From Octopus vulgaris (lineage: Eukaryota), in the NCBI GenBank assembly GCA_951406725.2, contig OX597820.1:75206001-75270000 (forward strand): a DNA stretch of 64,000 nucleotides, written 5' to 3'. The notes under the pieces were generated by a model. The model ran no database searches and had not been told where the DNA came from. It saw nothing but the letters and a program-made list of their open reading frames with translations. Positions 26,591 to 64,000 of the stretch are shown here, piece after piece. Both the position numbers and the translations under genes were made by a program. Position 1 is the first letter of the stretch; every line of letters begins with the position of its first letter.

Positions 26591-26656
26591 CGACAACATC
26601 TATTACGATGACATTGAGGATGATGACTATAAGGAGACGATTTCAAAGAAGACTTA

Positions 26657-27973
<1,317 letters not shown>

Positions 27974-32530: not shown

Positions 32531-32741
32531 TGTAAGACCAGTCTTACAGATGTTTCCAGGATATTAATTATATCCCTTCATCGGAGACGGTGTGAGAAAA
32601 TGTTTAAGCAATAGTTTAGATAAGATACGAAATAGAGAGTGAAGTGGAGGAATGAAAATAGATGTGAGATATGCAGGGATATTGCATTTGTAGATCCATT
32701 ATTTGGGCAGAATGGTATACATATAAGATTCCAATACCTTA

Positions 32742-32745
<4 letters not shown>
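32531..32745 (-). mobile_element. Shorter copy of the same pLTR-like family inside (TA)n
   Basis: Aligns with 54030-54240, has (TA)n on both sides, and ends in an 8-bp fold-back tgtaagac-ca-gtcttaca. Confidence 0.6.
32541..32588 (-). ncRNA. Second copy of the 54-kb hammerhead (stem III loop mutated)
   Basis: gucu-CCGAUGA-agggauau.aauua.auauccug-GAAA-CAUCUG-UA-agac. Flanking sequence is homologous to 54030-54240. Confidence 0.6.
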
Positions 32746-32794
<49 letters not shown>

Positions 32795-41510: not shown

Positions 41511-44500
41511 GTTTCTTTATTAGCCACACAGGGCTGCACACAGATAGAACAAATTACAAGGTAGAGCTTTTCTTTTGAAGGTTTAAAAAAAAAAAAAAAA
41601 AAGGAAGGGGGGAGTTTCGATCAAAAGGGATCGTAAAAGGAGAGAAAGAGGACAAAAAAAGGGGGGTTAAAAAAAGGGGGAGAGGAAAAAAAAAAAAAAA
41701 AAATGATCAATAGGGATCGTTATCACAGAAATGTCAATATGAAGTGTAAAGGGGAGGACAGGTGAGGTTTACCCGTGGAAAGAAAAGCCTACGGAAAAGA
41801 CCACGGTAACCTCGGTCAATGATGTCACATTTTATATTTCTTTTTTTTTTTTTTGCAAATAAGCAACTCTCTGTTTTCGATTTCTGGGTTCATAGGACTA
41901 TGCTCAAGGTGGCTTCGTCATTCATACGCGCCATTCTTGCTACATTCACCCATCTTTTTTTAAAACATTCGCTAGACAAAACTTGCCTCTCTACTCTCAC
42001 TTTCCTTTTCAAGTGGTACTTGAAGAAGTTGATGAGAGATTGACCAGAGAGGAAAGTGTTTGTCTCCAATCCTTTCAGACGCGTCCACCAGATACATTCT
42101 TTCGCCATAGCCACAAGGATGATGAAAATAGCTCTTCCTTCCCGTTTGAAGGAAGGAGGCGTGACAATATTGACGATAGACTCAGCTGATAAACCGACTC
42201 GTCCCACACGTGACAGCAGTTGTTCGACATAAGCCCACAGGTCGGAAATTGTTGGACACTGAACGAGTGCGTGCAGAACGGTTTCGTCGCTCTGACCGCA
42301 TCTCGGGCAGGTCGGCCCCGTGTTTCTCGAGCCGTGTCTGTAGAGCTTATCCCGAACGGGTAGCGCTTCTCGGTAGCACTGCCAGGCCAGGGATCTCTGG
42401 AAGTTGTCCATGGGCCCTGGCCCGAAAGTCGTCCTGAACAGGCGGGTCAGGTACTCCTCGTCGACGTCCAGGTTCGCCCCGAGCTCGTCGTCGTACCTCC
42501 CCTCCACTAAACCCCTATAGAATGCTTTGGTTGTGTTGAAGTCACTTAAGGTCGACCCAGGACGGCAGAGTTGCTTGAGAGCAACGCGACACTCCCGGTG
42601 CCATTCGCCCTTCCTCGGCCTCTTTTTGATCCACGACTGCAGTTCGGTCATGGAGACGAGCTGCGGGAAAGCGTGCCTCACAAACGGCGACCACACCTGT
42701 TCACCGTCGTCTACATAGAGCCAGAGATGCCGCAGTCTCAGCGCGTGTCTGCGCATCATCAACCACGGCATGCCCAGCCCTCCTTTTAACGGGTGTTGAC
42801 AGCAAATGGATCGCCTGACCATCGGGACGCATCCTTTCCACAAGAAGCGAAAGAGGATGCGTTGTAGTTTGGTGATGGTAGGGTCGGGACAAGGTACGAC
42901 GGTCAGGCGGTAGTAGATGACGGACGCGATGTACGTGTTCGCCACCTCCGCTCGACCTTTTAGGGACAGTTTCCTCTCGGCCCATTGCCGGGCGAGAGTG
43001 ACCACCCTACTCGTTATCTCGTTCCAGTTCTTCTCCACTTGGAGGTCCGGACCAAACCAGACCCCGAGCAACTCAACCGGGCCGTCGGTCCAGCGTCCCA
43101 CGACGGAGGCGCTGGTGGACGGCATGGGCTTGCTTCTCCAGGTGCCTAGTCGCAAGCCCACTGACTTTTCCCGGTTGATTTTCGCTCCTGTCACCGCTTC
43201 GTAGTTTTTCAGTGTCTCGCCGACCAGCTCGATGTGCTCGTGGCTAGACACTATGACGGTGACGTCGTCCGCGTATGCAGACACGCTCGTCCCGTATCCC
43301 AATTCTCGCGGGATGCCCCTTAGAGTCGCCAGCTTCCGCAGTAGTGGCTCAAGAGTCAATACGTATAGAAGCGCCGAGAGGGGGCATCCCTGACGGACCG
43401 AACGTGCAATGTCGAAAGGTCTCGATAGATGTCCATTTACGCGAATTACCGAACGGATGCCTCTGTACAAGGCAGCTATCCATCCGCGGAAAACGGGACC
43501 GAAACCAGCCGCTCTCAGGACTGCCCCCAAGTATCGATGGTCTACCCTATCAAAGGCTTTCGATTGATCCAAGTTGATCAGGGCCCCACCCATGCCAGGT
43601 TCGTTAACTACCCTGTCTATGATGTAGCGCATCAGATGGAGGTTGTCATGGATGGTCCGGCCTGGCACGGCGCATGTTTGCGCCTTGTCGACCAGTTTCT
43701 CGATGACAAGCGCCAACCTCTTGGCTAGCACCTTGGCCAAAATTTTCAAGTCTGCATTAAGCAGAGTGATGGGCCTAAAGTTATCTATTACATTTCCCTT
43801 GTTTAGATCTTTCTTCAGCAGTGTTACGGCTCCTCGGCTCACAAAACCAGGAATGCTCCCGTTTTGCTGCCAGTTGCAGTACACCGCCGCCAAGAGATCT
43901 CCAAACAAGTCTGGCATACAATTGTAAAGCTCGTAGGGTAGACCATCCAAACCCGGTGATTTGTCCCTCGAGCATTCTGCCATCGCTTCCCGCACTTCCG
44001 CCGCCGTGATGGCACCTTCGCAGCACCCTGCCTTTCTTGTCGAGAGTCGTGGTAGGCTATGTAGGTAGGCACTGAAGTCCACCCTACGTTCTTGCCCTCC
44101 ACTCGTTCCGAACAGTCGGGCAAAATGCTGCTGAAAGGCTTCACACATTTTACTTGGCTCGAGCAATTCGTGCCCCTGTTCATCTACCAGTGACCGAATG
44201 GTGGCTTTGTTGCCCTGTTGCGCCTCTGCCACCCGGGCCTCTCTCGCGGCTCCAACACCTTCGTTCCTTAGAGCACGCATCCTAGCTCTGACAGCACATC
44301 CTTCGTGTTTGGCGTTGAAGTGTTGGTCGAGGGCCAACCTCGCCGCCAAAACGTCGGATGCGATGCCGCTTCTAATTGCCTCTTCTAGCTTCTTAACTAG
44401 CTCACCCTCTACTCTATTTCTATCTATGGCTAGTGCTTTGCTGTACCTAATCGCTTCTGCTTTTACTGCTCTCTTGAGGGCAAACCACCATTTGTTGTTG

Positions 44501-44901
44501 ATGATGGCTCCCGTCAAAGCCCTCTTTACTAGTGTGCTAATCCGGTCTCTGAAAACTTGTCTCGATGGGAAAGACGCGTTTAGTTTCCAGTATCCGGGAC
44601 CCTGCCTAAGTGTCTTACCTAAGTCTAGCGTACATGTCACAAGTTTGTGATCCGTGTAGCTGACTATGTGGAATTGTGGACATCCTATGCTATCTCTATC
44701 TACTGTCCTACACAGTATCCTATCTAGATACGATCTCGATGACCCGATGCGGTTGCTCCATGTCCACGTTGGCGCATTCGGGTGGTCTAGTCGGAACCTG
44801 TCAGACAGTTGAAAGCGTCTGAGCAGGTCTCTGAGGCATTTGCATCCCCGTCTATTCCTATCTCTACCCACGTAGTCTACATGCGTGTCCAAGGTAGCAT
44901 T
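41511..44901 (-). mobile_element. Tx1/L1-clade non-LTR retrotransposon, 5'-truncated inside the APE endonuclease, with 3'UTR
   Basis: GC-rich block containing ORF2. The 3'UTR (41889-41511) ends AATAAAGAAAC. Candidate 13-bp TSD: gatagatagatat (41498-41510) / gattgatagatat (44902-44914), at the edge of a (GATA)n tract. Confidence 0.92.
41890..44901 (-). CDS. LINE ORF2 (partial APE endonuclease + reverse transcriptase + CCHC knuckle), ~1000 codons without stops
   Basis: APE C-terminal motifs NATLD, SYLDRILC, TDHKLV. RT motifs KSPGLDGLP, NFRPITLLNADLKILAK, LDQSKAFDRVDH, RQGCPLS, YADD. Zinc knuckle CPRCGQSDETVLHALVQC. The first ~27 aa of the tracked ORF are read-through from flank/SINE. Confidence 0.92.
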   Translation of the reverse strand, partial: NATLDTHVDYVGRDRNRRGCKCLRDLLRRFQLSDRFRLDHPNAPTWTWSNRIGSSRSYLDRILCRTVDRDSIGCPQFHIVSYTDHKLVTCTLDLGKTLRQGPGYWKLNASFPSRQVFRDRISTLVKRALTGAIINNKWWFALKRAVKAEAIRYSKALAIDRNRVEGELVKKLEEAIRSGIASDVLAARLALDQHFNAKHEGCAVRARMRALRNEGVGAAREARVAEAQQGNKATIRSLVDEQGHELLEPSKMCEAFQQHFARLFGTSGGQERRVDFSAYLHSLPRLSTRKAGCCEGAITAAEVREAMAECSRDKSPGLDGLPYELYNCMPDLFGDLLAAVYCNWQQNGSIPGFVSRGAVTLLKKDLNKGNVIDNFRPITLLNADLKILAKVLAKRLALVIEKLVDKAQTCAVPGRTIHDNLHLMRYIIDRVVNEPGMGGALINLDQSKAFDRVDHRYLGAVLRAAGFGPVFRGWIAALYRGIRSVIRVNGHLSRPFDIARSVRQGCPLSALLYVLTLEPLLRKLATLRGIPRELGYGTSVSAYADDVTVIVSSHEHIELVGETLKNYEAVTGAKINREKSVGLRLGTWRSKPMPSTSASVVGRWTDGPVELLGVWFGPDLQVEKNWNEITSRVVTLARQWAERKLSLKGRAEVANTYIASVIYYRLTVVPCPDPTITKLQRILFRFLWKGCVPMVRRSICCQHPLKGGLGMPWLMMRRHALRLRHLWLYVDDGEQVWSPFVRHAFPQLVSMTELQSWIKKRPRKGEWHRECRVALKQLCRPGSTLSDFNTTKAFYRGLVEGRYDDELGANLDVDEEYLTRLFRTTFGPGPMDNFQRSLAWQCYREALPVRDKLYRHGSRNTGPTCPRCGQSDETVLHALVQCPTISDLWAYVEQLLSRVGRVGLSAESIVNIVTPPSFKREGRAIFIILVAMAKECIWWTRLKGLETNTFLSGQSLINFFKYHLKRKVRVERQVLSSECFKKRWVNVARMARMNDEATLSIVL

Positions 44902-44931
44902 GATTGATAGATATATGTGTAATAATATATT

Positions 44932-45052
44932 CTTTTCTACTCTAGGCACAAGGACCGAAATTTTTGAGGCGGGGGCTGTCAATTAGATCGACCCAAGTAT
45001 GCAACTGGTGCTTAATTTATAGACACCCGAAAGGATGAAAGGCAAAGTCGAG
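44932..45052 (-). mobile_element. 5'-truncated SINE family A next to the LINE 5' junction
   Basis: Tail cttttctactctaggcacaagg plus core, flanked by atatgtg(ta)ataatatatt repeats (44913-44931 / 45063-45079). Confidence 0.78.
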
Positions 45053-51529: not shown

Positions 51530-52357
51530 CAGGGTGTGATGAGTAAATTGCCACCTATATGGTAGGGACAGTTGGATATCGTCTGTGAGGAAAACAGCTC
51601 CATGACGCAATTCACTCTGCCAGAAATTTGGGAACAACATGCTGTGCTGCTTGGCATTCGCGCCGGATGCTCCAATACAAACCTTTCAAAGTGTTTGGGT
51701 GTCGATCTGAGGAGAGCGCAATTTGAGGACATGTACCAAGAGTGATAAAAATCAAACATCCAATCAACATCATGGTGTTTGGAGTGATCACTAGTGAAGG
51801 CGACGCTATACCACCATTCATCTTCCCACACGGCCTCCCACTCAACACGGAGGCGTACATCAAGTGGTTAGAGGAAGTAATACTGCCCTGTGTCAAGTGG
51901 GTGACTGCTAGAAGACCCTATATCTGTCAACAGCACTCTGCTACATGCTACACAAACGGGAGAACCCAGTCATGGCTGTCAGATAATTTCTGCGACCACA
52001 TCACCCATAACATTAGGCCGCTCAACTCCCCAGACTGCAACCCCCTTGATTATTATCTGTGCGGTGCGGTCGATCGAGAGACAAAAAAAAAACCTTGTAA
52101 CACCAAAAATGAACTGAAGGCAAGGATTACGGTAGCATTCACCAACTTAAACAAGAGTACCGTCCAGAAGAGTTGCAGGAAATTCCGAAGCCATCTGAAG
52201 GCTATGGTTGAAGCCAATGGCGATATTATTGAATAAATTTATTCTTTAGTATTCCAATGTATTTTTATGTAATTTTGGTAACTATATGTTAAAATGAGAT
52301 GCCAGTGTTATTTTCAGTTTTGCGTAATTTGAACAAGATTTTATTCACCGCGCGCTG
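51530..52357 (+). mobile_element. Tc1/mariner superfamily DD37D (maT-type) transposon, internally deleted, inactive
   Basis: ORF 51742-52236: MVFGVITSEG...QQHSATCYT...NSPDCNPLDYY...LKAMVEANGDIIE. There are 37 residues between the second catalytic position (D->H here) and the third D. Imperfect TIRs cagggtgtgatgagtaaa / tttattcaccgcgcgctg. Confidence 0.85.
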
Positions 52358-53815: not shown

Positions 53816-54355
53816 TTATAAGAGGTAATGGTGTCATTGAGACATTACGTGTCAGGTAATGCTGAATAAGTTCTATAGACAGACCATAGTTATGTTCCAG
53901 GTTCGGTAATTTTGTGAATAAGGCGTTCAAAGTTGGTTCTATGTCAGCGTCTGTATATAAGAATTTTTTGCGTAATGAGATAAAAAAAAAACAAGGCTGT
54001 GTAGATATTAGAAGATTTATAGATAGAATGTCTTACAGCTGTTTCCAGGATATTTATTGATTATATCCCTTCATCGGAGACAGTGTGAGAGGATGGTTAA
54101 GTCATAGTTAGTTCAGATGTAATACAAAATAGAGAGTGAGGTGGAGGAAAGAAAATAGATGCAAGATATGTAGCGATATTGAAGTTGTAGATCCACTTTT
54201 TAGGCAGAATAGTGTATATGTAAGATCCAATACCTTATGAGAATGGTATATATGTAAGATTCCAATACCTTATGAGTAATGTCCAACAGAGTTTAAAATG
54301 GGTCCTTCCATACAGTCTATACACAATGTAAGATTATAATCTTACATTGTGTATA
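53813..54355 (-). mobile_element. Non-coding PLE pLTR-like fragment with hammerhead and a 38-bp perfect palindrome at its 5' end
   Basis: Abuts (TA)n at 53771-53812 and contains the HHR at 54029-54082. Palindrome tatacacaatgtaagatta|taatcttacattgtgtata at 54318-54355. Homologous to 32531-32745. Confidence 0.6.
54029..54082 (-). ncRNA. Minimal type I hammerhead ribozyme (U4C variant, GUA triplet) in a PLE pLTR-like repeat
   Basis: ugucu-CCGAUGA-a.gggauau.aaucaauaa.auauccu.g-GAAA-C.AGCU.G-UA-agaca. Stem I is 5 bp, stem II is 7 bp, stem III is palindromic. Confidence 0.72.
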
Positions 54356-55099
54356 AACTCTTATTTTGGTTTCCATCTACCAAATCTATTAACAAGACTT
54401 TAGTTTGCGCCTGTTATAATAGAGGATACCTGCCTAAGGTGACACATAATGAGACTGAACTCGGAACCCTGTGGTTGTAAAGCAAACTTTTTACCATTCA
54501 ACCACGCCGGCACTTGAAGATATATATATATATATATATGCATACAAACGTACATACAAACAACCACACAGAAACACATACACTATATATGTGTGTGTGT
54601 GTGTGTGTGTTTATAAACAATAATCACTCCTAGATATTTCCGGGCCTATTGAAATCTTTATTTTATTGATAGATTTATATTTCAACAATTTAAAGCATTA
54701 ATTAAATAAATATGTTGTTTTCGTTTTGGCTCTTTGTCATTCACGTGCTTTTGGCAATAAATCTATGGAAATTTATCAATTTAGCAGTTCGGTTTGTGTT
54801 ATATTTTATATCAACAAAGAAATCAAGGAACGTTTTAAATTCGGAAAACAGCTTCTGGCAGGCCAATTACATTCCAAGTAGCATTGGAATCTTTATTGAA
54901 GTCAATTGATTTCACTTACGCTAATTATTCCCTTGTTAAAATTTATTATGCTCACACAGACTTATTCGATTATCTTCACTATATACCCTTGTGTAAAATA
55001 GAGAATCACAAATGTTAATATAGTCTTTTCATCTGTGACACATTACTTCTTCCTATTGCAGAATTGGTCTATTCGCAGGCATTACGTCTTAATCGAACA

Positions 55100-56229: not shown

Positions 56230-57110
56230 GTTTCATGCAGTAATCTGAAAAAATCTGACTTTGAAAATACTTCCTTCTTCTTTTTATGAAGTGTCCAGCC
56301 TACTATGCCCCAGAATTGTTCAATAGAATTTATATCTGGCGACTGGGTTCGCTATGGGAACCTTATATTGCCATTCTCATCCAACAAATCTTGAGTTACT
56401 TTAGCCGAGTGACAAGTATCCCCATCTTCCACAAATAAAGAGTCTTCTTTAATCATTTCACCACTGGAGAAGATTGGAAGGTGTTCTTTCTGCAATATGG
56501 ACACATATATATCTGAGTATATGTTTTCGTGAAACTCCACCAGCTCTGATCAGCCATTGCTCCAAATTTCTCCACAGATCATCACAGAATAACTGTCTTG
56601 CTTCATTTTCGCTGCAATCATTTCACATCAAATTCTTGATAACAGAATCTCCGGACCCACGCTCGACTACTGTCAAGAAATACAGTAAATGTGAACTCAT
56701 CATAGAATATGAGAGTGTCTCAAAATGCTAGTGGCCTCTCCCCCATCTCACTGGCCCAATCCTTACCCCGCTTGATGCTGGCTGCTCTAAGTAGCTTCCT
56801 TCTTACTGCTCTGACATAGTAATCAAGTTTGCTATGTCAGAGGCATTACTACGAGGATTAAACTCCACCGTTCTCTTAACGAAGAGAAGGGTCCTGTTAG
56901 AGGCCTCTGGTTGATCTGGACGAGGTGATGCATACTCCTTCCCCTCTCTGGTAAATTGCACAACCACTCTATTAACTGTAGACAGCGGGGTCCCAGGGTT
57001 TTCTGTGATTTTACGCAATGTCCACGTTTAGAATGACCACAATATAGCCTCTTTGAAATTCAGACAGCTTCAAGGTTGTTTTTTTTTTTACATGGTATGA
57101 TTAAACAGTC
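56230..57110 (-). pseudogene. Tc1-like DD34E transposase relic
   Basis: HTH-like GTPLSTVNRVVVQFTREG. Catalytic region FVEDGDTCHSAKVTQDLLDENG...QSPDINSIEQFW with 34 residues between D and E. Contains stops and frameshifts. Confidence 0.8.
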
Positions 57111-57758
57111 ACATTAGAACCTGAAACAAAGATGTCAATTAATAAAAAATATAAATCATTACAAGTTCGAATAAACATAGAACGATGTTTTATGGCGTGT
57201 TAATTTACTTCTCTCATGTCTATGTATATCTATATATGTGCGTGTGTGTGTGTATGTGTATTTACATATATGCCAAATTTCGTTGGCATATAAACATTAA
57301 TATATATATATATCGTAATGTTTATTTCCCAACGGAATGTGGCAGTTGTATAAAAGACGATGTTTCTGTTTTTTAGCCCCAGGAAAGCATCGTTTCCAGC
57401 AGGCTATCAAAACATAGTTTGTGTTTGTATAGCATTGGCAAGGGAGGTCATTGCTCCCATTTCTAGCCTTACCTGAAACTCACTGACCTTGGTTTCTGGA
57501 TCAGATGTAGCACGGTATTTTGTCAGTGAACAGTTCGCGGTTTCAAATCGACGAAAATTTTTTGACAAATTAAATTTAAATACTGAAATGAGTATAACGG
57601 TTTTGTGTGTGTGTTTTTAATGGTTTATAAACTCCTTCCACGCTGCAATTGTATATATATATATGTGTGTGTGCGCGCGCGCGCACGTGTGTGTGTGTTT
57701 GTGTGTGTGCGTGTGTGTGTGTGTATGTGTGTGTATGTGTGTTTGTGTGTGTGCTCTA

Positions 57759-58000
57759 CTGCATTTCAGCCTCTGTGGCATTATTTATTGTGCAATCGTT
57801 GGTAAACATGAACTCGCACATTTTCTCCTCTTCCAATTTGGTCTTGGCCTGTGGTTTTCTTAGGTTGAGGGGTCTGTCTTCAGTCGTGAATCTGGTGTTG
57901 ATCATGCTTTCGTCGTTGTTAGAGAAATCTTCACCCAGAATAGTAGAAAACAACATGCTGAAAAGTGTAGGTATGAGTACACAGCCCTGACTCCGTTAGT
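57759..58000 (-). pseudogene. RTE (BovB-like) LINE reverse-transcriptase core fragment, inverted
   Basis: TNGV/QGCVLIPTLFSMLFS...RFTTEDRPLNLRKPQAKTK...FMFTNDCTINNATEAEMQ matches RTE RT GVKQGCVLAPTLF...LFNLRRLQAKTK...LFADDCAL. Confidence 0.85.
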
Positions 58001-58510
58001 GAGAAATGTGTTATATATCAATTGGCAAGACAAAGTCCCAGTCACAGAAAACCTCTCCCGAGCTAATCCGCCAAGCATTTACACACACTGCTGAGGACAA
58101 TGGAAATCAGGTGGTCGGGCCACTTTGTTCGAAGTCTTGACACGCAATTGCCCAATTAACTGCTTAATAGCGAACTGATTCCCGCAAGGTGGAGAATGAA
58201 AGCATTTCAAGGTCATTGAAAGCGTCACTAAGGAGCTTTAAGATTAACCCCGACACCTAGGAGAGCTGCACCAAAAGAATTGCCATCTTCTAGGAACAGA
58301 ACACGATTGCAGGGACACAACGAAAATGAGTACTTCGCATGTCCAGAGCTAACCTCTTGACTTCGGCTCTGATAGCCCGCCAGTATCTGGCCTAAATCGG
58401 AGACTTCCGAGCACGCATGGGACTGATTGACCGCAGTCGGTTACTCTGGGTCCCTCCTTCACCCATGTTACAACCTTTGTTATCGTCGACACGGAAGGTT
58501 GAACTAATTA
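58001..58510 (+). pseudogene. RTE (BovB-like) LINE 3' fragment
   Basis: RNVLYINWQDKVPVTENLSRANPPSIYT / IRWSGHFVRSLDTQLPN*LLNSEL / LKASLRSFKINPDT* / GDFRARMGLI are RTE ORF C-terminal motifs, followed by a short tail. Confidence 0.82.
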
Positions 58511-58559
58511 ATTTGTGTATGTGTGTGTGTGTGTGTGCGTGTGTGTGTGTATGCTTGTG

Positions 58560-59712
58560 TGTATTGTTATATCTGTAGATGGTCATTTCTTTTTCTTGAC
58601 AAATTTGCACACACCATATATATTCATTCTTCATTTGTTTATTATTTTTCTTATTTTATGTCCTATGTCTTGAAAGCTTTCGCCGCACGCACACTTGTGA
58701 CACCTTCGGCGACTTTCCATCCCACCTGTGTCCTCCTGTTCTGTTTAGTTGATTCTGCCTTTCTGTGGTGCGTCTCTTTACCTGTTCATGCGTTTGTGTT
58801 TGTATGCATGTGCGCGCGCGTGTGTGTACGCATCTCGATGTGTTCTGTGTGTTTTGCGTGTGTATATGAGCTTGTTCACTATAGTATTTATATCTGTGTT
58901 CTCGATGCATTCATTTATTTTCATTTACTCATTTATTTCTCTACTTTTCATCATTTCACCTTAAATGTGTGCATGTGTGTCTTTTGTGTATATATATATG
59001 AGTTTACGTAGTATAATGTTTGTATCTGTGTCTCATTTTTTGCTCCCGTCCTCTCTTTAGTCGTCATGTTGGGTAGTGCAGTTGTGTTGGGTGTTATTGT
59101 TCCATTCCTATTTGCTGTTAAAGCTCGGTCTGTTTATTACTATGTGTGTGGCTTCTGTTTTCTAAGTGCCGTGCCTGTTGTATGCATTGATAATGCCTAA
59201 ACATCAATATTATTTACCGGATCTCTATGTTCTAATTAAGCATGTTGGTAAAGTACTGATGAGAGTTTCTCTTCTTTGAGCTCCAGCCAGTGTGCACATG
59301 ACCGCTCTCCTATGCTACATGTCGTTTCAACAATGTAACATTTCTTTTGTTTTTCCATCATCACTCAGTACACCGAATGCAAACAGAACATTCCTAATCC
59401 TACAGTTAGCTTGTGGGCTCATACTATATACTATATAGTTTTTCTGCGTACACGGGAGCCTTTTCAATGAATATGTTCTAGAGATAAGGAATTGTATGGG
59501 GGTGCCTGGACTTTCTACTACTTTAATCGTTGATTTACTTTATCTAATGTATTCCTAAAAAGATATGCTAGTTTGTCGCTAGATGTAACATCAGCGGACA
59601 CGATAATCTGGTATTTTCGGTTGTCATAATATGTGCTGGCTATCTTCTGGATCTTTTCTACGTTGTTCTAGGATTTACTACTGTATAGAGGACGGATCCA
59701 TTTTGCATCAGA
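58560..59712 (-). pseudogene. Penelope-like retroelement relic: RT-EN linker, GIY-YIG endonuclease and probable 3' pLTR
   Basis: Minus-strand translation through stops/frameshifts: WIRPLYS...TIKVVESPGTPIQFL...NCRIRNVLFAF...CYIVETTCSIGERSCAH...SSVLYQHA...EATHIVINRPSFNSK. This matches the PLE GIY-YIG pattern (NVVY / YIGET..R..EH / EA..I....P.LN). A degenerate hammerhead-like motif lies at 58667-58713. Confidence 0.72.
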
Positions 59713-59752
<40 letters not shown>

Positions 59753-59961
59753 GATGAGAGTTTCTCTTCTTTATATATATATATATATATAACATAAGGG
59801 ACGAAAGCCATCGGAATATGGCTAGGGACAGGGCAGGGTGGTGGGGGTGTTACTGTTGCATTTAGCCCCAGGCGAACATCGACGTCGCCAGATAGGCTTG
59901 ACACCATCACGGTGTCCTTTAACCTGCAAAGGGAGATAATTCCCCGATGAAGCGGAAACCA

Positions 59962-60007
59962 CACACGGACCGTGGTTTCAAGGTGTATTGCCTATCGTCA
60001 ACGTGTG
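59962..60007 (-). ncRNA. Mirror copy of the hammerhead in the left palindrome arm
   Basis: Reverse complement of 60441-60486 with one change that breaks the stem III palindrome (CCACGG instead of CCAUGG). Confidence 0.6.
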
Positions 60008-60440
60008 GTAGGCCTCCGCTTCCTCGACGAAATCTCACTCTGCAGGATGTTCATATATAGATTTTCAAGCAAAATACATTTGCTGATTTCGAAAATCTGT
60101 TCGACAGCAATAATAATTCTCTAAAAGAGATATAGACAGTAACTGCTCGATAACATAAGGGACGAAAGCCATCTGAATATGGCTAGGGACAGGGCAGGGT
60201 GGTGGGGGTGTTCGCCTGGGGCTAAATGCAACAGTAACACCCCCACCACCCTGCCCTGTCCCTAGCCATATTCAGATGGCTTTCGTCCCTTATGTTATCG
60301 AGCAGTTACTGTCTATATCTCTTTTAGAGAATTATTATTGCTGTCGAACAGATTTTCGAAATCAGCAAATGTATTTTGCTTGAAAATCTATATATGAATA
60401 TCCTGCAGAGTGAGATTTCGTCGAGGAAGCGGAGGCCTAC

Positions 60441-60486
60441 CACACGTTGACGATAGGCAATACACCTTGAAACCATGGTCCGTGTG
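60441..60486 (+). ncRNA. Minimal type I hammerhead ribozyme (C3U core variant, GUC cleavage triplet)
   Basis: cacacg-UUGACGA-u.agg.caauaca.ccu.u-GAAA-C.CAUG.G-UC-cgugug. Stem I is 6 bp, stem II is short, stem III is palindromic. Predicted cut after 60480. Confidence 0.7.
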
Positions 60487-60700
60487 TGGTTTCCGCTTCA
60501 TCGGGGAATTATCTCCCTTTGCAGGTTAAAGGACACCGTGATGGTGTCAAGCCTATCTGGCGACGTCGATGTTCGCCTGGGGCTAAATGCAACAGTAACA
60601 CCCCCACCACCCTGCCCTGTCCCTAGCCATATTCAGATGGCTTTCGTCCCTTATGTTATCGAGCAGTTACTGTCTATATCTCTTTTAGAGAATTATTATG

Positions 60701-60737
<37 letters not shown>

Positions 60738-60994
60738 TACGTTTTATTTATTTTATTCTTTAAAAAATCAAGGTAGTAAAATATCAGCTATTTTTCTGTG
60801 TGAAACAAATTCAATATTTTATCCTTGAACAGTCTTTACATCACAGCGGCGTAATGTACAGGGCCATCATATTAAAAGTAACGCATTTTATATTTTAGAT
60901 GAAACGTCGAATTTTTATTATTGGAGTTTTTCTGCTATATTTTAGCAAATCTAGAGAATATTAAAGCTACAATTTTCATGTAATCTTGAAGTAT

Positions 60995-61355
60995 ACGGTT
61001 ATGTTGCCTGCTTTGTAACCGCGTGGTTTCATGTTCAGTTCCTCTGCGTGGCACCTTGGGTAACTGTTCTTCTATTACAGTCCCGGGCCGACTAATATCT
61101 TTTAAGTGAAGTAGGTAGGCAGAAGCTGTGGAAAGCCTGTCGTGTGTTTATGTGAGTCGTTTTGTGTGATTGTCACCTCTTCCCCACTGTCTCAAAGCTG
61201 TTGCCGAGTTTTTAAGTCCCCGCAACTTAGCAACTCGGCAAACGAAACCTAAATAATAATATGTATTGATATCGATTTGTTCGGCTTCAATCCTTCATGT
61301 CGGTGCCCCAGTATGGCGGTGCTGTAGTCCAATGCCTGAAACAAGAAAAAAAGAT
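60995..61355 (+). mobile_element. SINE family B, diverged
   Basis: gcgtggcaccttggg...gtccccgcaacttagc...ggtgccccagtatggc...gaaacaag. Confidence 0.7.
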
Positions 61356-62124
61356 AAGTTAAAAGATTATCATCTAAAATTATTATTATGAAGAAATATA
61401 TTCCTCCTTAATATTAGATTTCACACTGGATCAAATGAAATTTTATTAAATCTCATCTGATGATATTTTCATTAAAAAGAATTTTTTTTCTAAATTTATA
61501 AGATAATTTCCAGATCAAAAATTTTAATATTTTAAAGTAGGAAATATTTCTTTGCGTTTCATTCTGTTAAAAACAGGGTTATTTATCAACGAATCAAGAA
61601 GTAATTTAAACCATTAAAAATGATTACAATTGATTAAAGCAGATTTTGCAATATATCTCAGTTTATAGATTTAAACCGGCTGTAGCCACTCGCTAATTTA
61701 CTAATTTTTATCGTTGCATAAATTTTTAGAAAAAGCTACACAAAAAAAACAAAAACATCATAATAAATATTATGCAATCTATAAAGTGGTTCGTATTTTA
61801 ATGTTAAAAAAAAAATCAAATGTGTTATTAGCTCGAGTTGTTTAATGAGAATCTATATATAAGGCAAATGTTTGCTTGACATAATTATCAAACATATTTA
61901 GCCAACCATATCGTTAGAAGTTCATATTTTTTATGAAACCATACAGCTTCTATTGCAAATCGATTGCAATTAAAAAGTTCAAGAGCAATAGAAACGTTAT
62001 GAAAGATCTATTTGATTTCAAAACAATTAGATATACGTAAAAACATTCAAGCAACCTTAAGCATATTTGATATAGTAAAACATGAGCGTTCATTACAAAG
62101 TGTTTTACAGAATATCTTTCTCGT

Positions 62125-62330
62125 GATGGCAAGTCGGCAGAATCATTAGCCCATGGAACAAAAATGCTTACCGGCACTTCACCTGCTTCTTTACGATCCG
62201 AGTTCAAATCCGGCTGGGGACAACTCTACTATCCATCCCTTGGGGTCGATGGAATAAAGCACAACCCCAGCATTGAAGATGATATAACAGATCGGACCCT
62301 TCTCCTTGAAATCGCTTGCTTTGAGCCTTG
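62125..62330 (+). mobile_element. Diverged SINE family A
   Basis: ggcagaatcattag head, gagttcaaatcc B-box, ccatcccttggggtcgatgga core. Confidence 0.62.
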
Positions 62331-63448
62331 CAACAGATCGGTCTCCCTTTCAGGTGGAATGCTGTCACCTCGATTACCCATACGTCATGAAACCTGCTAA
62401 TCGGTGTTAAATATCGAAGGAGCTGAGAAATGTTTTACAGACTACTTCTAAATTGAAAAACTCGTTAAGACGAATAATTTCATCTCCTATATTTATTCAG
62501 ATTATCATTGGCAGTATTACTTGTATATAACTGATTCTGTACTACTATTGTTATAGCTTCTGCTCATAAGAAATGAATGGCCTCAAGTAACTTCGAAGAA
62601 AACTCTCCCCAACACTCGTCACCCTTATCATGTTGCCCTCCTCAACGGACCTAACTGAACATTATCAACATATTTTCCCTTTCTTTGAAGTTTTAATCTT
62701 TGAAATGTTTCTTATGCGACATCGATTTGTTACTATCCTAGAAGAATAGAGAGATTTTCCATCTTACTCGTATCGGAAGGCATCCGAATGCCTTGGACCG
62801 AATTATTATCCCTAATACAAAGCAGATTTGCTGTCTCCAGATGTTATTGCTAAGCTGTTGCTACACAAGAAAAGCAGTAACAATGACTGTGTTCTGTTTA
62901 AAAACGAATGGAAAGTAAACATTCTCAGGTCAATTAAGCCCCACTTTTAGTCTATTAATCTGTCTACTTAAACCATGACTGTGCAGTAGTAATTGAAATC
63001 AATTCATTGTAGCAACCCTGTTATTTTACTCAACATAAAATATTATAAGTATAGAAATATTGAAGCGCTAATACAGGAACGTTCTTTCTTTTTTCTTTTA
63101 ATTTTTGTGAAAAACAAAATTTGCGCTGTAAAAAAATACTGGTGTAGAGCGCTTAACTTGAAGCCTGTTAAAGTGTCTCAAGAATGTCGGAAGCAGAGTA
63201 AGTGTTTCAAAGAATCTACCTAAGTCGATAGCGGTTATTGACTTCAGTTGGAATAACGAAGGCGATGCTTTTTGCGTAACAATTATTTGACTGAATTAAA
63301 CGATTCTGTTCTTCTTCAATAAGCTACTAGCACTGCTTCCTAGTTTCGTGGGAAATAGCATACGTTGAACATAAATGTAAAAGTGAGCACATAATAATTA
63401 GCACAATTTAAATTAATATACAAGTTGCAGCATCCACCCCACAAAAAA

Positions 63449-63492
63449 ATAATAATGATAATAATAACAACAACAACAACAACAACAACAAT

Positions 63493-63535
<43 letters not shown>

Positions 63536-63549
63536 TCAACAAAAATAAA

Positions 63550-63632
<83 letters not shown>

Positions 63633-63880
63633 TAAAACGAAACAAAGGAATTACTGATTAGGTTACATTTGACGGCATTGTACATATCTTATCTACATTC
63701 ATTAAAAAAAAATACAATTTCTTGTTAACTTTTCCATACTGATTACAGGAAACAACAGCAGATTTTGTCAGTTATACATTGTTCTTCATGCGTACTATCT
63801 GTCCCTCTATTTTACCTTCTACCTCCCTTCCTCTTTCTATACCTATCTATCTATCTTTCTATCTATCTATCTATCTATCC

Positions 63881-63924
<44 letters not shown>

Positions 63925-63964
63925 GTATATCTAGCTGTCTGTCTATCTATCCCTCTAGCTATCC

Positions 63965-64000
<36 letters not shown>
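63449..64000. repeat. (AAC)n/(AAT)n and (TATC)n microsatellites
   Basis: 63449-63630 and 63840-64000. Confidence 0.95.

What the first reader, a model, noticed from the sequence alone, without database searches (positions are those of the whole stretch)
59789..60698. 361-nt hammerhead-bearing, rod-folding, circularly permuted unit: candidate cephalopod retrozyme / circular-RNA retroelement
Seen: the sense arm (60209-60698) is ~1.35 copies of a 361-bp non-coding unit. The unit carries a minimal type I hammerhead (60441-60486, GUC, palindromic stem III). The hammerhead caps a long imperfect rod at 60402-60525 (cctgcagag/ctttgcagg, gagat/atctc, gaagcgga/tccgcttc, cacacg/cgtgtg). The rest of the unit is also made of hairpins (gacacc-gtgat-ggtgtc, agccat-attcag-atggct, agcaaa-tgtat-tttgct, tctct-ttt-agaga). 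Known: metazoan non-LTR retrozymes are tandem repeats of a few hundred nt with type I hammerheads that yield circular RNAs and are thought to use PLE enzymes. Inference: more-than-unit-length, permuted cDNA fits reverse transcription around a 361-nt circle or tandem transcript. This copy has only one ribozyme per arm, so it is a product rather than a source of monomers.
Basis: partly seen in the sequence, partly recalled or inferred. Interest (0 to 1): 0.85.

Follow-up and report, generated by a model that had tools for sequence, protein, structure and literature searches.

The report
Octopus retrozyme-like, Penelope-type insertion
A many-copy, non-coding 361-base repeat in octopus DNA carries a hammerhead-like RNA motif with an altered core and shows the insertion footprint of Penelope-like retrotransposons, so it is likely a small parasite copied by their enzymes from a longer-than-unit, possibly circular RNA; self-cutting and RNA circles are untested.

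Summary
The 361-bp period, the hammerhead-like motif (60441-60486) and the 124-nt rod are real. The insertion has the Penelope-like-element (PLE) footprint: an inverted arm, a partial tandem, a 43-nt tail on one side only, and (TA)n flanks. Contigs from 4 public runs (3 organism codes) show a many-variant family covering the whole unit. One run shows the same two ends running into (AT)n, and a separate 325-nt contig bridges the stretch from the ends to the ribozyme, so the period is not private to this locus. It reads U3 opposite G8 here and C3-C4 in the other main form; no listed difference gave the consensus C3-U4. Only the rod folds beyond chance (z -8, against -1.2 and -1.6 for the rest). 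Best reading: a non-autonomous, retrozyme-like element moved by PLE enzymes (about 0.85). Its template was more than one unit long: a circle (about 0.5) or an uncut tandem transcript (about 0.35). Cleavage, circles and multimers are unshown. The kind is known; I found no cephalopod report in the library searched.

The parts
60209..60702 (+). Sense arm, 494 nt = 1.37 units (partial tandem)
59789..60212 (-). Inverted arm, 424 nt = 1.17 units; reverse complement of 60236-60659 with 3 mismatches (against 60399, 60476, 60635)
60209..60569 (+). One 361-nt non-coding unit (46% GC)
60441..60486 (+). Type I hammerhead-like motif with canonical helix sizes, non-consensus core (U3 opposite G8; U10.1-U11.1) and palindromic helix III; predicted cut after 60480
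   Evidence: class definitions
59962..60007 (-). Second copy of the motif in the inverted arm; one change breaks the helix III palindrome (self-duplex -8.9 against -12.6 kcal/mol)
60402..60525 (+). Imperfect rod that extends helix I and closes over the motif; the only part that folds beyond chance
60660..60702 (+). 43-nt 'tail' present on the sense arm only. Its two borders match unit positions 60298 and 60342, where contigs of run X4 run into (AT)n; inferred to be the two reverse-transcription start sites
   Evidence: PMC11167929
60209..60239 (.). Centre of the palindrome: 4-nt microhomology (60209-60212 with 60236-60239) around a 23-nt spacer
59773..59790 (.). Left (TA)n flank (target)
60703..60735 (.). 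Right (TA)n flank (target)
59744..59772 (+). 29-bp copy (97%) of 59249-59277 lying inside the left TA run; possibly filler templated from nearby DNA during insertion or repair (inference)

Best explanation
This is one insertion of a many-copy, non-coding 361-nt octopus repeat with a non-consensus hammerhead-like motif, likely pasted in by the reverse transcriptase-endonuclease of a Penelope-like element (PLE) acting in trans on an RNA template that was probably a 361-nt circle. Shown: the anatomy, the family, and the fixed ends. Inferred steps: (1) rare head-to-tail copies elsewhere are transcribed; (2) two weak hammerheads pair through palindromic helix III and cut slowly; (3) the rod holds the ends of the monomer together and a host ligase closes it; (4) PLE protein nicks (TA)n DNA on both strands and starts reverse transcription at two fixed internal sites 43-44 nt apart, 179 and 222 nt downstream of the cut site; (5) the cDNAs read through the cut site and past their own starts (494 and 424 nt); (6) the two cDNA ends join through a 4-nt microhomology, or one cDNA snaps back on itself there, leaving the palindrome with a one-sided tail. 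This copy has one motif per arm and is a dead-end product. My odds: non-autonomous, PLE-moved unit with a more-than-unit template about 0.85; the template being a circle about 0.5 overall.
For: PLE footprint: inverted 5'-truncated arm, partial tandem, one-sided 43-nt tail and (TA)n target, as described for PLEs in PMC8557442 (passages). In PMC11167929 the tail is the stretch between two internal RT start sites, and the enzyme cleaves and extends both strands of AT-rich DNA. Family evidence (4 of 4 runs laid): 1343, 394, 679 and 9 contigs; 28 of 28 bins covered in the 3 large runs; share running on into unlike sequence 0 in those three; wrap-around joints from the end of the unit to its start in all 4 runs; loose ends into (AT)n at 60298 (1 contig) and 60342 (3 contigs, different flanks) in X4; one 325-nt contig in X13 with 6 differences and no gap across 60209-60525. 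20 of 24 listed runs from 13 studies and 7 organism codes hold part of the stretch (only 4 were laid). The helix sizes and the U-U base of helix II resemble the axolotl retrozyme motif HHR_Amex2, which cuts weakly as a monomer and well as a dimer and yields circles (PMC7229834). The linear monomer opened at the cut site folds with helix I and the rod intact, holding the 5' end against the 3' part. A family whose cDNAs can never exceed the parent's length would decay, so some length-restoring step such as a circle is needed (inference).
Against: The core is non-consensus. This copy has U3 opposite G8; the natural U3 variants I read about come with A8. In one search, position 3 read C only together with C at position 4 (96% of summed depth in X1, 16% or less in X4, 2% in X5, and the single X13 contig there), so no consensus C3-U4 form was listed; forms under 85% alike or under 4% would be missed. 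The cleavage-competent fold lies 7.9 kcal/mol above the MFE. Rfam does not recognise the motif. For a coding PLE, hammerhead mutants did not affect insertion in vitro and unprocessed RNA was the main substrate (PMC11167929); 8 of 9 predicted Xenopus retrozyme dimers did not cleave (preprint). No multimer, circle, RNA end or autonomous partner was seen. Assembly contigs of a repeat do not show single molecules, X13 is only guessed to be RNA, and only 24 of 150 loose ends were displayed. Of the 12 listed family substitutions, 7 fall in predicted pairs and 4 of those break the pair, so structural conservation is not demonstrated.
Confidence: 0.5

Rival explanations
1. Same non-autonomous, PLE-moved unit, but the hammerhead is dead or irrelevant. 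The template is an uncut linear transcript of a head-to-tail copy, and no circle is made.
For: Non-consensus core in both main forms. Hammerhead cleavage is dispensable for Poseidon insertion in vitro. The cDNA crossed the cut site seamlessly. Putatively non-autonomous PLEs with head-to-tail insertions are described in Chlamydomonas, in a clade that mostly lacks canonical hammerheads (MRC1; PMC8557442). Unchecked scan notes describe similar units with a tRNA in place of the ribozyme.
Against: All other core positions (G5, A6, G8, A9, GAAA, GUC) show no listed variant in 4 runs, which suggests they are still constrained. U4C and U10.1-U11.1 occur in natural hammerheads that keep some activity (PMC3088659). 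This route does not by itself explain how full length is restored.
Confidence: 0.35
2. An ordinary 5'-truncated insertion of a coding PLE. The 361-bp period is only where this copy's reverse transcriptase stopped and restarted, and the unit is the element's pseudo-LTR.
For: Inversion, partial tandem, tail and TA target are standard for coding PLEs. O. vulgaris has 190 Penelope-like families covering 6.83% of the genome (PMC13282606 supplement rows). A rare coding parent could be hidden among the 126 loose ends not shown.
Against: The stretch just 3' of the ends (60343-60440) is covered at depth of the same order as the rest in X1, runs without a break into the ribozyme in an independent, diverged contig (X13), and almost nothing laid runs into foreign sequence in the three large runs. 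The motif has retrozyme-type rather than minimal PLE-type helices.
Confidence: 0.1
3. A DNA-level product (fold-back or replication-slippage duplication of a SINE or satellite monomer in a TA run), or an assembly artefact, with a chance hammerhead look-alike.
For: Long near-perfect palindromes can arise by fold-back or in assembly; this junction was not checked in raw reads; Rfam gives no hit.
Against: The arms differ at 3 sites. Both outer ends coincide with (AT)n-joined ends of other copies. The descriptor's chance rate is 0.06 per window, and the rod folds at z -8.
Confidence: 0.05

Closest known systems
Metazoan non-LTR retrozymes (Cervera and de la Pena 2020, PMC7229834, parts 2-4 of 6 read; Li, Clavereau and Pollet 2026, bioRxiv 10.64898/2026.07.22.740005, parts 1-3 of 5 read)
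   Same: Non-coding unit in the size range of mussel (350-390 nt) and axolotl (330/350 nt) retrozymes, GC under 50%, head-to-tail repeat, type I motif with canonical helix sizes; U-U at the base of helix II and a 2-bp helix III as in HHR_Amex2.
   Different: The core departs from CUGANGA in both main forms; only 1.37 units and one motif per arm here; cleavage and circles unshown; no cephalopod in the parts read. This copy shows the PLE inversion-plus-tail footprint, which the parts I read do not describe for retrozymes.
Endonuclease-bearing Penelope-like elements and their pseudo-LTRs (Craig et al. 2021, PMC8557442, passages; Frangieh et al. 2024, PMC11167929, parts 1-2 of 4; Cervera and de la Pena 2014, PMC4209133, Results and Discussion)
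   Same: Partial tandem, adjacent inverted 5'-truncated copy, one-sided tail, AT-rich or (TA)n target, hammerhead upstream of the two ends.
   Different: No ORF; the unit closes on itself at 361 nt; the tail is 43-44 nt against the quoted 30-40; helix sizes are canonical rather than minimal.
Non-autonomous PLEs such as MRC1 of Chlamydomonas (PMC8557442, passage)
   Same: Putatively non-autonomous units that form pseudo-LTRs and head-to-tail insertions.
   Different: Chlamys clade in algae, mostly without canonical hammerheads; an autonomous partner sharing the 3' end was not found here.

Membership tests
Metazoan non-LTR retrozyme | Non-coding unit of about 150-450 bp, GC under 50% | tested here: met
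   361 bp, 46% GC; longest circular ORF 89 aa; no Pfam hit for the 76 residues scanned. PBS and PPT absence was not searched.
Metazoan non-LTR retrozyme | Type I hammerhead with canonical helix sizes (I 6 bp, II 4 bp, short III with palindromic loop) | tested here: met
   against the definition; helix II is 3 bp plus a U-U mismatch
Metazoan non-LTR retrozyme | Consensus catalytic core (C3 U4 G5 A6 N7 G8 A9, GAAA, UH) | tested here: not met
   U3 with G8 in this copy; other main form C3-C4; consensus form not listed in 4 runs; no Rfam hit
Metazoan non-LTR retrozyme | [quoted passage not shown] | tested here: inconclusive
   Not met at this locus (one motif per arm). For the family, contigs close the loop, but no genome or long reads were available.
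Metazoan non-LTR retrozyme | Multi-copy, dispersed family | tested here: met
   1343, 394 and 679 variant contigs in three large runs; different flanks at one end. No copy number can be derived.
Metazoan non-LTR retrozyme | RNA self-cleavage, and accumulation of monomeric circular RNA | not testable with these tools
   Needs the bench; only contigs were available and no holder is on record as RNA
PLE-type insertion | Partial tandem with an adjacent inverted truncated copy | tested here: met
PLE-type insertion | One-sided tail between two fixed ends; AT-rich or microsatellite target | tested here: met
   43 nt here; the same two ends join (AT)n in run X4, on 1 and 3 contigs
Autonomous PLE | ORF with reverse transcriptase and GIY-YIG endonuclease | tested here: not met
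   No such ORF in or beside the insertion; the only reverse transcriptase ORF found in the window (41890-44982) is of a different, LINE type
Minimal PLE hammerhead | Long helix II (6-8 bp), short helix I (2-5 bp), G10.1-C11.1 | tested here: not met
   Helix II 3 bp plus U-U, helix I 6 bp

The most novel reading that the evidence does not exclude
A retrozyme family that has spread through several octopus genomes with two alternative non-consensus hammerhead cores (U3-U4 and C3-C4) and no consensus form. It would be a throttled ribozyme that cuts only as a dimer or with protein help, so that its circles stay closed, and every insertion would record both PLE start sites. This would be footprint-level evidence that PLE enzymes reverse-transcribe retrozyme circles, and a natural test of how much cleavage the cycle needs.
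Probability: 0.3. Interest if true: 0.65.

Novelty: new variant of a known kind. Interest (0 to 1): 0.42.

Why it matters
Which enzyme moves animal retrozymes, and whether the hammerhead matters for PLE-type transposition, are open questions. The 2020 paper names PLEs as candidates, the 2026 preprint adds co-occurrence and phylogeny, and the 2024 Poseidon work finds cleavage dispensable in vitro. This family carries the PLE-specific tail and inversion on a retrozyme-sized non-coding unit and comes in two natural core variants, which makes both questions testable in one system. It is not a new kind of element. The unit may already be in octopus repeat libraries under a Penelope or unknown label, which I could not check.

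Tried and rejected
No whole genome is held for the window, so copy number, multimers and an autonomous partner could not be counted. Rfam: no hammerhead hit in 57000-64000 at E<=1, in 60400-60530 at E<=10 or in 54010-54110; the microRNA hits are below gathering score and come from the palindrome centre. Exact-pattern scans found nothing in metagenome contigs or viral contigs. No RNA holder is listed on record; X13 is only a guess, so expression is not claimed. Summed contig depth was not used as copy number, and the depth dips at 60404-60455 were not interpreted. No other full copy lies in the window; the only further match is a weak 34-nt one at 57361-57392 (E 0.08), rejected. The second hammerhead family in the window shares no significant sequence with this unit, so it is rejected as the partner. 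An ORF starting in helix III (89 aa as a circle) has no Pfam hit over the 76 residues scanned, and its start codon is changed in the left arm: rejected. The CUGAUGA-like word in the 29-bp flank piece has no downstream GAAA: rejected. Motif searches in the Craig et al. supplement were blank, but long sequence runs are cut there, so this says nothing. The supplement of PMC7229834 could not be read and may list a cephalopod example; bioRxiv supplements are closed; one supplementary file of PMC4209133 was not searched. Lunse et al. 2017 and Arkhipova et al. 2017 are not held (titles only, from a reference list) and may describe such core variants. Look-ups in earlier scan findings by sequence, by genome and by two word sets gave nothing; one search gave only unrelated bacterial and viral notes.

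Full report
Host and setting. The window is from an Octopus: the exon at 26657-27970 is 95% identical to a protein that a source names as Octopus bimaculoides (1 hit among 4422 candidates). No whole genome is held. No ORF of 120 aa or more with a Pfam hit lies in or beside the insertion (25 ORFs listed, 4 translations scanned).

Anatomy. The sense arm runs 60209-60702. Its first 130 nt recur 361 nt later with no mismatch, and three more bases match after a 1-nt gap. The inverted arm, 59789-60212, is the reverse complement of 60236-60659 with 3 mismatches in 424 nt. The arms meet at a 4-nt microhomology around a 23-nt spacer. The sense arm is therefore 43 nt longer at its outer end than the inverted arm. 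Both outer ends abut (TA)n. A 29-bp copy of nearby DNA (59249-59277) sits in the left TA run. Partial tandem, adjacent inverted truncated copy, one-sided 30-40-bp tail and microsatellite target are the arrangement described for PLEs (PMC8557442, passages). Frangieh et al. showed that the tail is the stretch between two internal reverse-transcription start sites and that the enzyme cleaves and extends both strands of AT-rich DNA (PMC11167929, parts 1-2 of 4). Both arms (494 and 424 nt) exceed one unit and cross the predicted ribozyme cut without a scar. If they come from two priming events they are two witnesses; if one cDNA snapped back at the microhomology they are one. The sequence cannot tell these apart.

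The ribozyme-like motif. At 60441-60486 there is a 6-bp helix I, core positions 3-9 reading UUGACGA, a helix II of U-U plus 3 bp with a 7-nt loop, GAAA, a 2-bp helix III with a palindromic tetraloop, and GUC. A relaxed descriptor, written after seeing the motif, gives 4 hits in the window against a mean of 0.06 in 50 shuffles, so it is unlikely to be chance. The helix sizes are those that Cervera and de la Pena call canonical, not minimal. A U-U base of helix II with a 2-bp helix III is described for an axolotl retrozyme that cuts weakly as a monomer and well as a dimer. Against activity: position 3 is U while 8 is G, whereas the natural U3 variants in the papers read covary with A8. The competent fold is 7.9 kcal/mol above the minimum, in which the core mispairs. 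Rfam does not recognise the motif. The helix III palindrome self-pairs at -12.6 kcal/mol, and one change in the left arm weakens this to -8.9.

Folding. The rod 60400-60527 is real (z -7.8; 0 of 200 shuffles as good). The remainder is at chance level (z -1.6 and -1.2). The circle is branched, with 7 hairpin loops and 64% of bases paired. Of 12 family substitutions, 5 fall at unpaired sites, 3 keep a predicted pair and 4 break one (two of these four are in pairs of probability 0.4). Covariation could not be tested, because the variants cannot be phased from short contigs.

The family. 20 of 24 listed runs, from 13 studies and 7 organism codes, hold part of the stretch. I laid 4 of them on one unit at 85% likeness (all are assembly contigs). 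1343, 394, 679 and 9 contigs were laid. The three large runs cover 28 of 28 bins, and their share running on into unlike sequence is 0 (0.5 in the small run). All four show the wrap from the end of the unit to its start. In X4, loose ends go into (AT)n at 60298 (1 contig) and 60342 (3 contigs with differing flanks); these are the unit positions of this copy's two outer ends. A 325-nt contig in X13, with 6 differences and no gap, spans 60209-60525 and so bridges the stretch between the ends and the ribozyme, where a coding PLE would have its ORF. The 361-nt loop is therefore a family property, not a truncation point of this copy. Limits: contigs of a repeat do not show single molecules; 126 of 150 loose ends were not displayed; the best DNA run may be the window's own source; X13 is only guessed to be RNA; depth is not copy number.

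Core variation. Position 3 read C only together with C at position 4: 96% of summed depth in X1, 16% or less in X4, 2% in X5, and the X13 contig. Otherwise both positions read U, as here; position 7 is often U. No listed row gives the consensus C3-U4, although forms under 85% alike or under 4% would be missed, and depth dips in this region. No variant is listed at G5, A6, G8, A9, GAAA or GUC. U4C is reported to lower activity considerably in vitro while still permitting viroid infectivity (PMC3088659, passage). A second, unrelated hammerhead family in this window also has C at position 4.

Mechanism. Shown: anatomy, family, fixed ends, absence of coding. Inferred: mobilisation in trans by a PLE protein from two internal start sites (about 0.85). 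The template was longer than one unit and intact at the cut site. A circle (about 0.5) is favoured by the retrozyme-type motif, by the rod that holds the monomer's ends together, by the precedent of circles from weak dimer-dependent motifs, and by the need to restore length across generations. An uncut tandem transcript (about 0.35) is favoured by the altered core, by the finding that Poseidon insertion does not need cleavage, and by 8 of 9 Xenopus dimers failing to cut. A plain truncated coding PLE (0.1) and a DNA-level or assembly origin (0.05) fit poorly. This copy cannot release a monomer, and a transcript through it would form a 424-bp hairpin.

Relation to what is known. It works like a non-LTR retrozyme and inserts like a PLE. 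I do not file it as a retrozyme proper, because the consensus core is not met and two-ribozyme units, cleavage and circles are unshown. More-than-unit reverse transcription of PLE circles was already proposed in 2014, and retrozymes as non-autonomous PLE derivatives in the 2026 preprint, which sampled no mollusc in the parts read. Searches combining octopus or cephalopod with hammerhead, retrozyme, ribozyme or circular RNA, and retrozyme with inversion and tail, listed no report of a cephalopod retrozyme; searches for the core variants listed none for this pairing. The 2026 O. vulgaris repeat annotation does not contain the word ribozyme in its main text or supplement. The library lacks most subscription papers, two relevant papers were not held, and one relevant supplement was unreadable.

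Verdict. A real feature and a new variant of a known kind; interest 0.42.

Noticed in passing
window 32541-32760 and 54030-54256, - strand: Two copies (81% alike over about 220 bp) of a second, unrelated hammerhead-bearing repeat with C at core position 4, a long helix II, a 4-bp helix I and a short helix III (palindromic in the 54077 copy), i.e. PLE pseudo-LTR type. The first sits between (TA)n runs; the second has a short upstream partial duplication and a small inverted repeat at 54314-54359. No Rfam hit for the second.
   Followed up: partly
window 59744-59772 and 59249-59277: A 29-bp piece of DNA from 495 bp upstream is copied into the TA run beside the insertion; a TAGTAC word lies at the end of a TA run on both sides of the element. 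Possibly templated filler plus target duplication.
   Followed up: partly
window 41890-44982, - strand: Uninterrupted 1030-aa frame with RVT_1 and zf-RVT domains in a GC-rich block; likely a young LINE (an L1/Tx1-like look is recalled, not tested).
   Followed up: partly
window 26654-27973, - strand: Long first coding exon of a sulfotransferase gene (weak Sulfotransfer_1 hit at its end; heparan sulfate 3-O-sulfotransferase-like by recall). Its O. bimaculoides relative carries sulfotransferase Pfam domains but is named 'nuclear transcription factor Y subunit gamma' by the source, probably a misannotation.
   Followed up: partly
window 51727-52236, + strand: 169-aa frame that looks like a Tc1/mariner transposase fragment (recalled resemblance; no Pfam hit at E<=0.001).
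   Followed up: no
window 60049, 59972, 59813: All three arm mismatches appear to be private to the inverted arm, since no matching family variant is listed; replication error, later mutation or a second template are all possible.
   Followed up: partly
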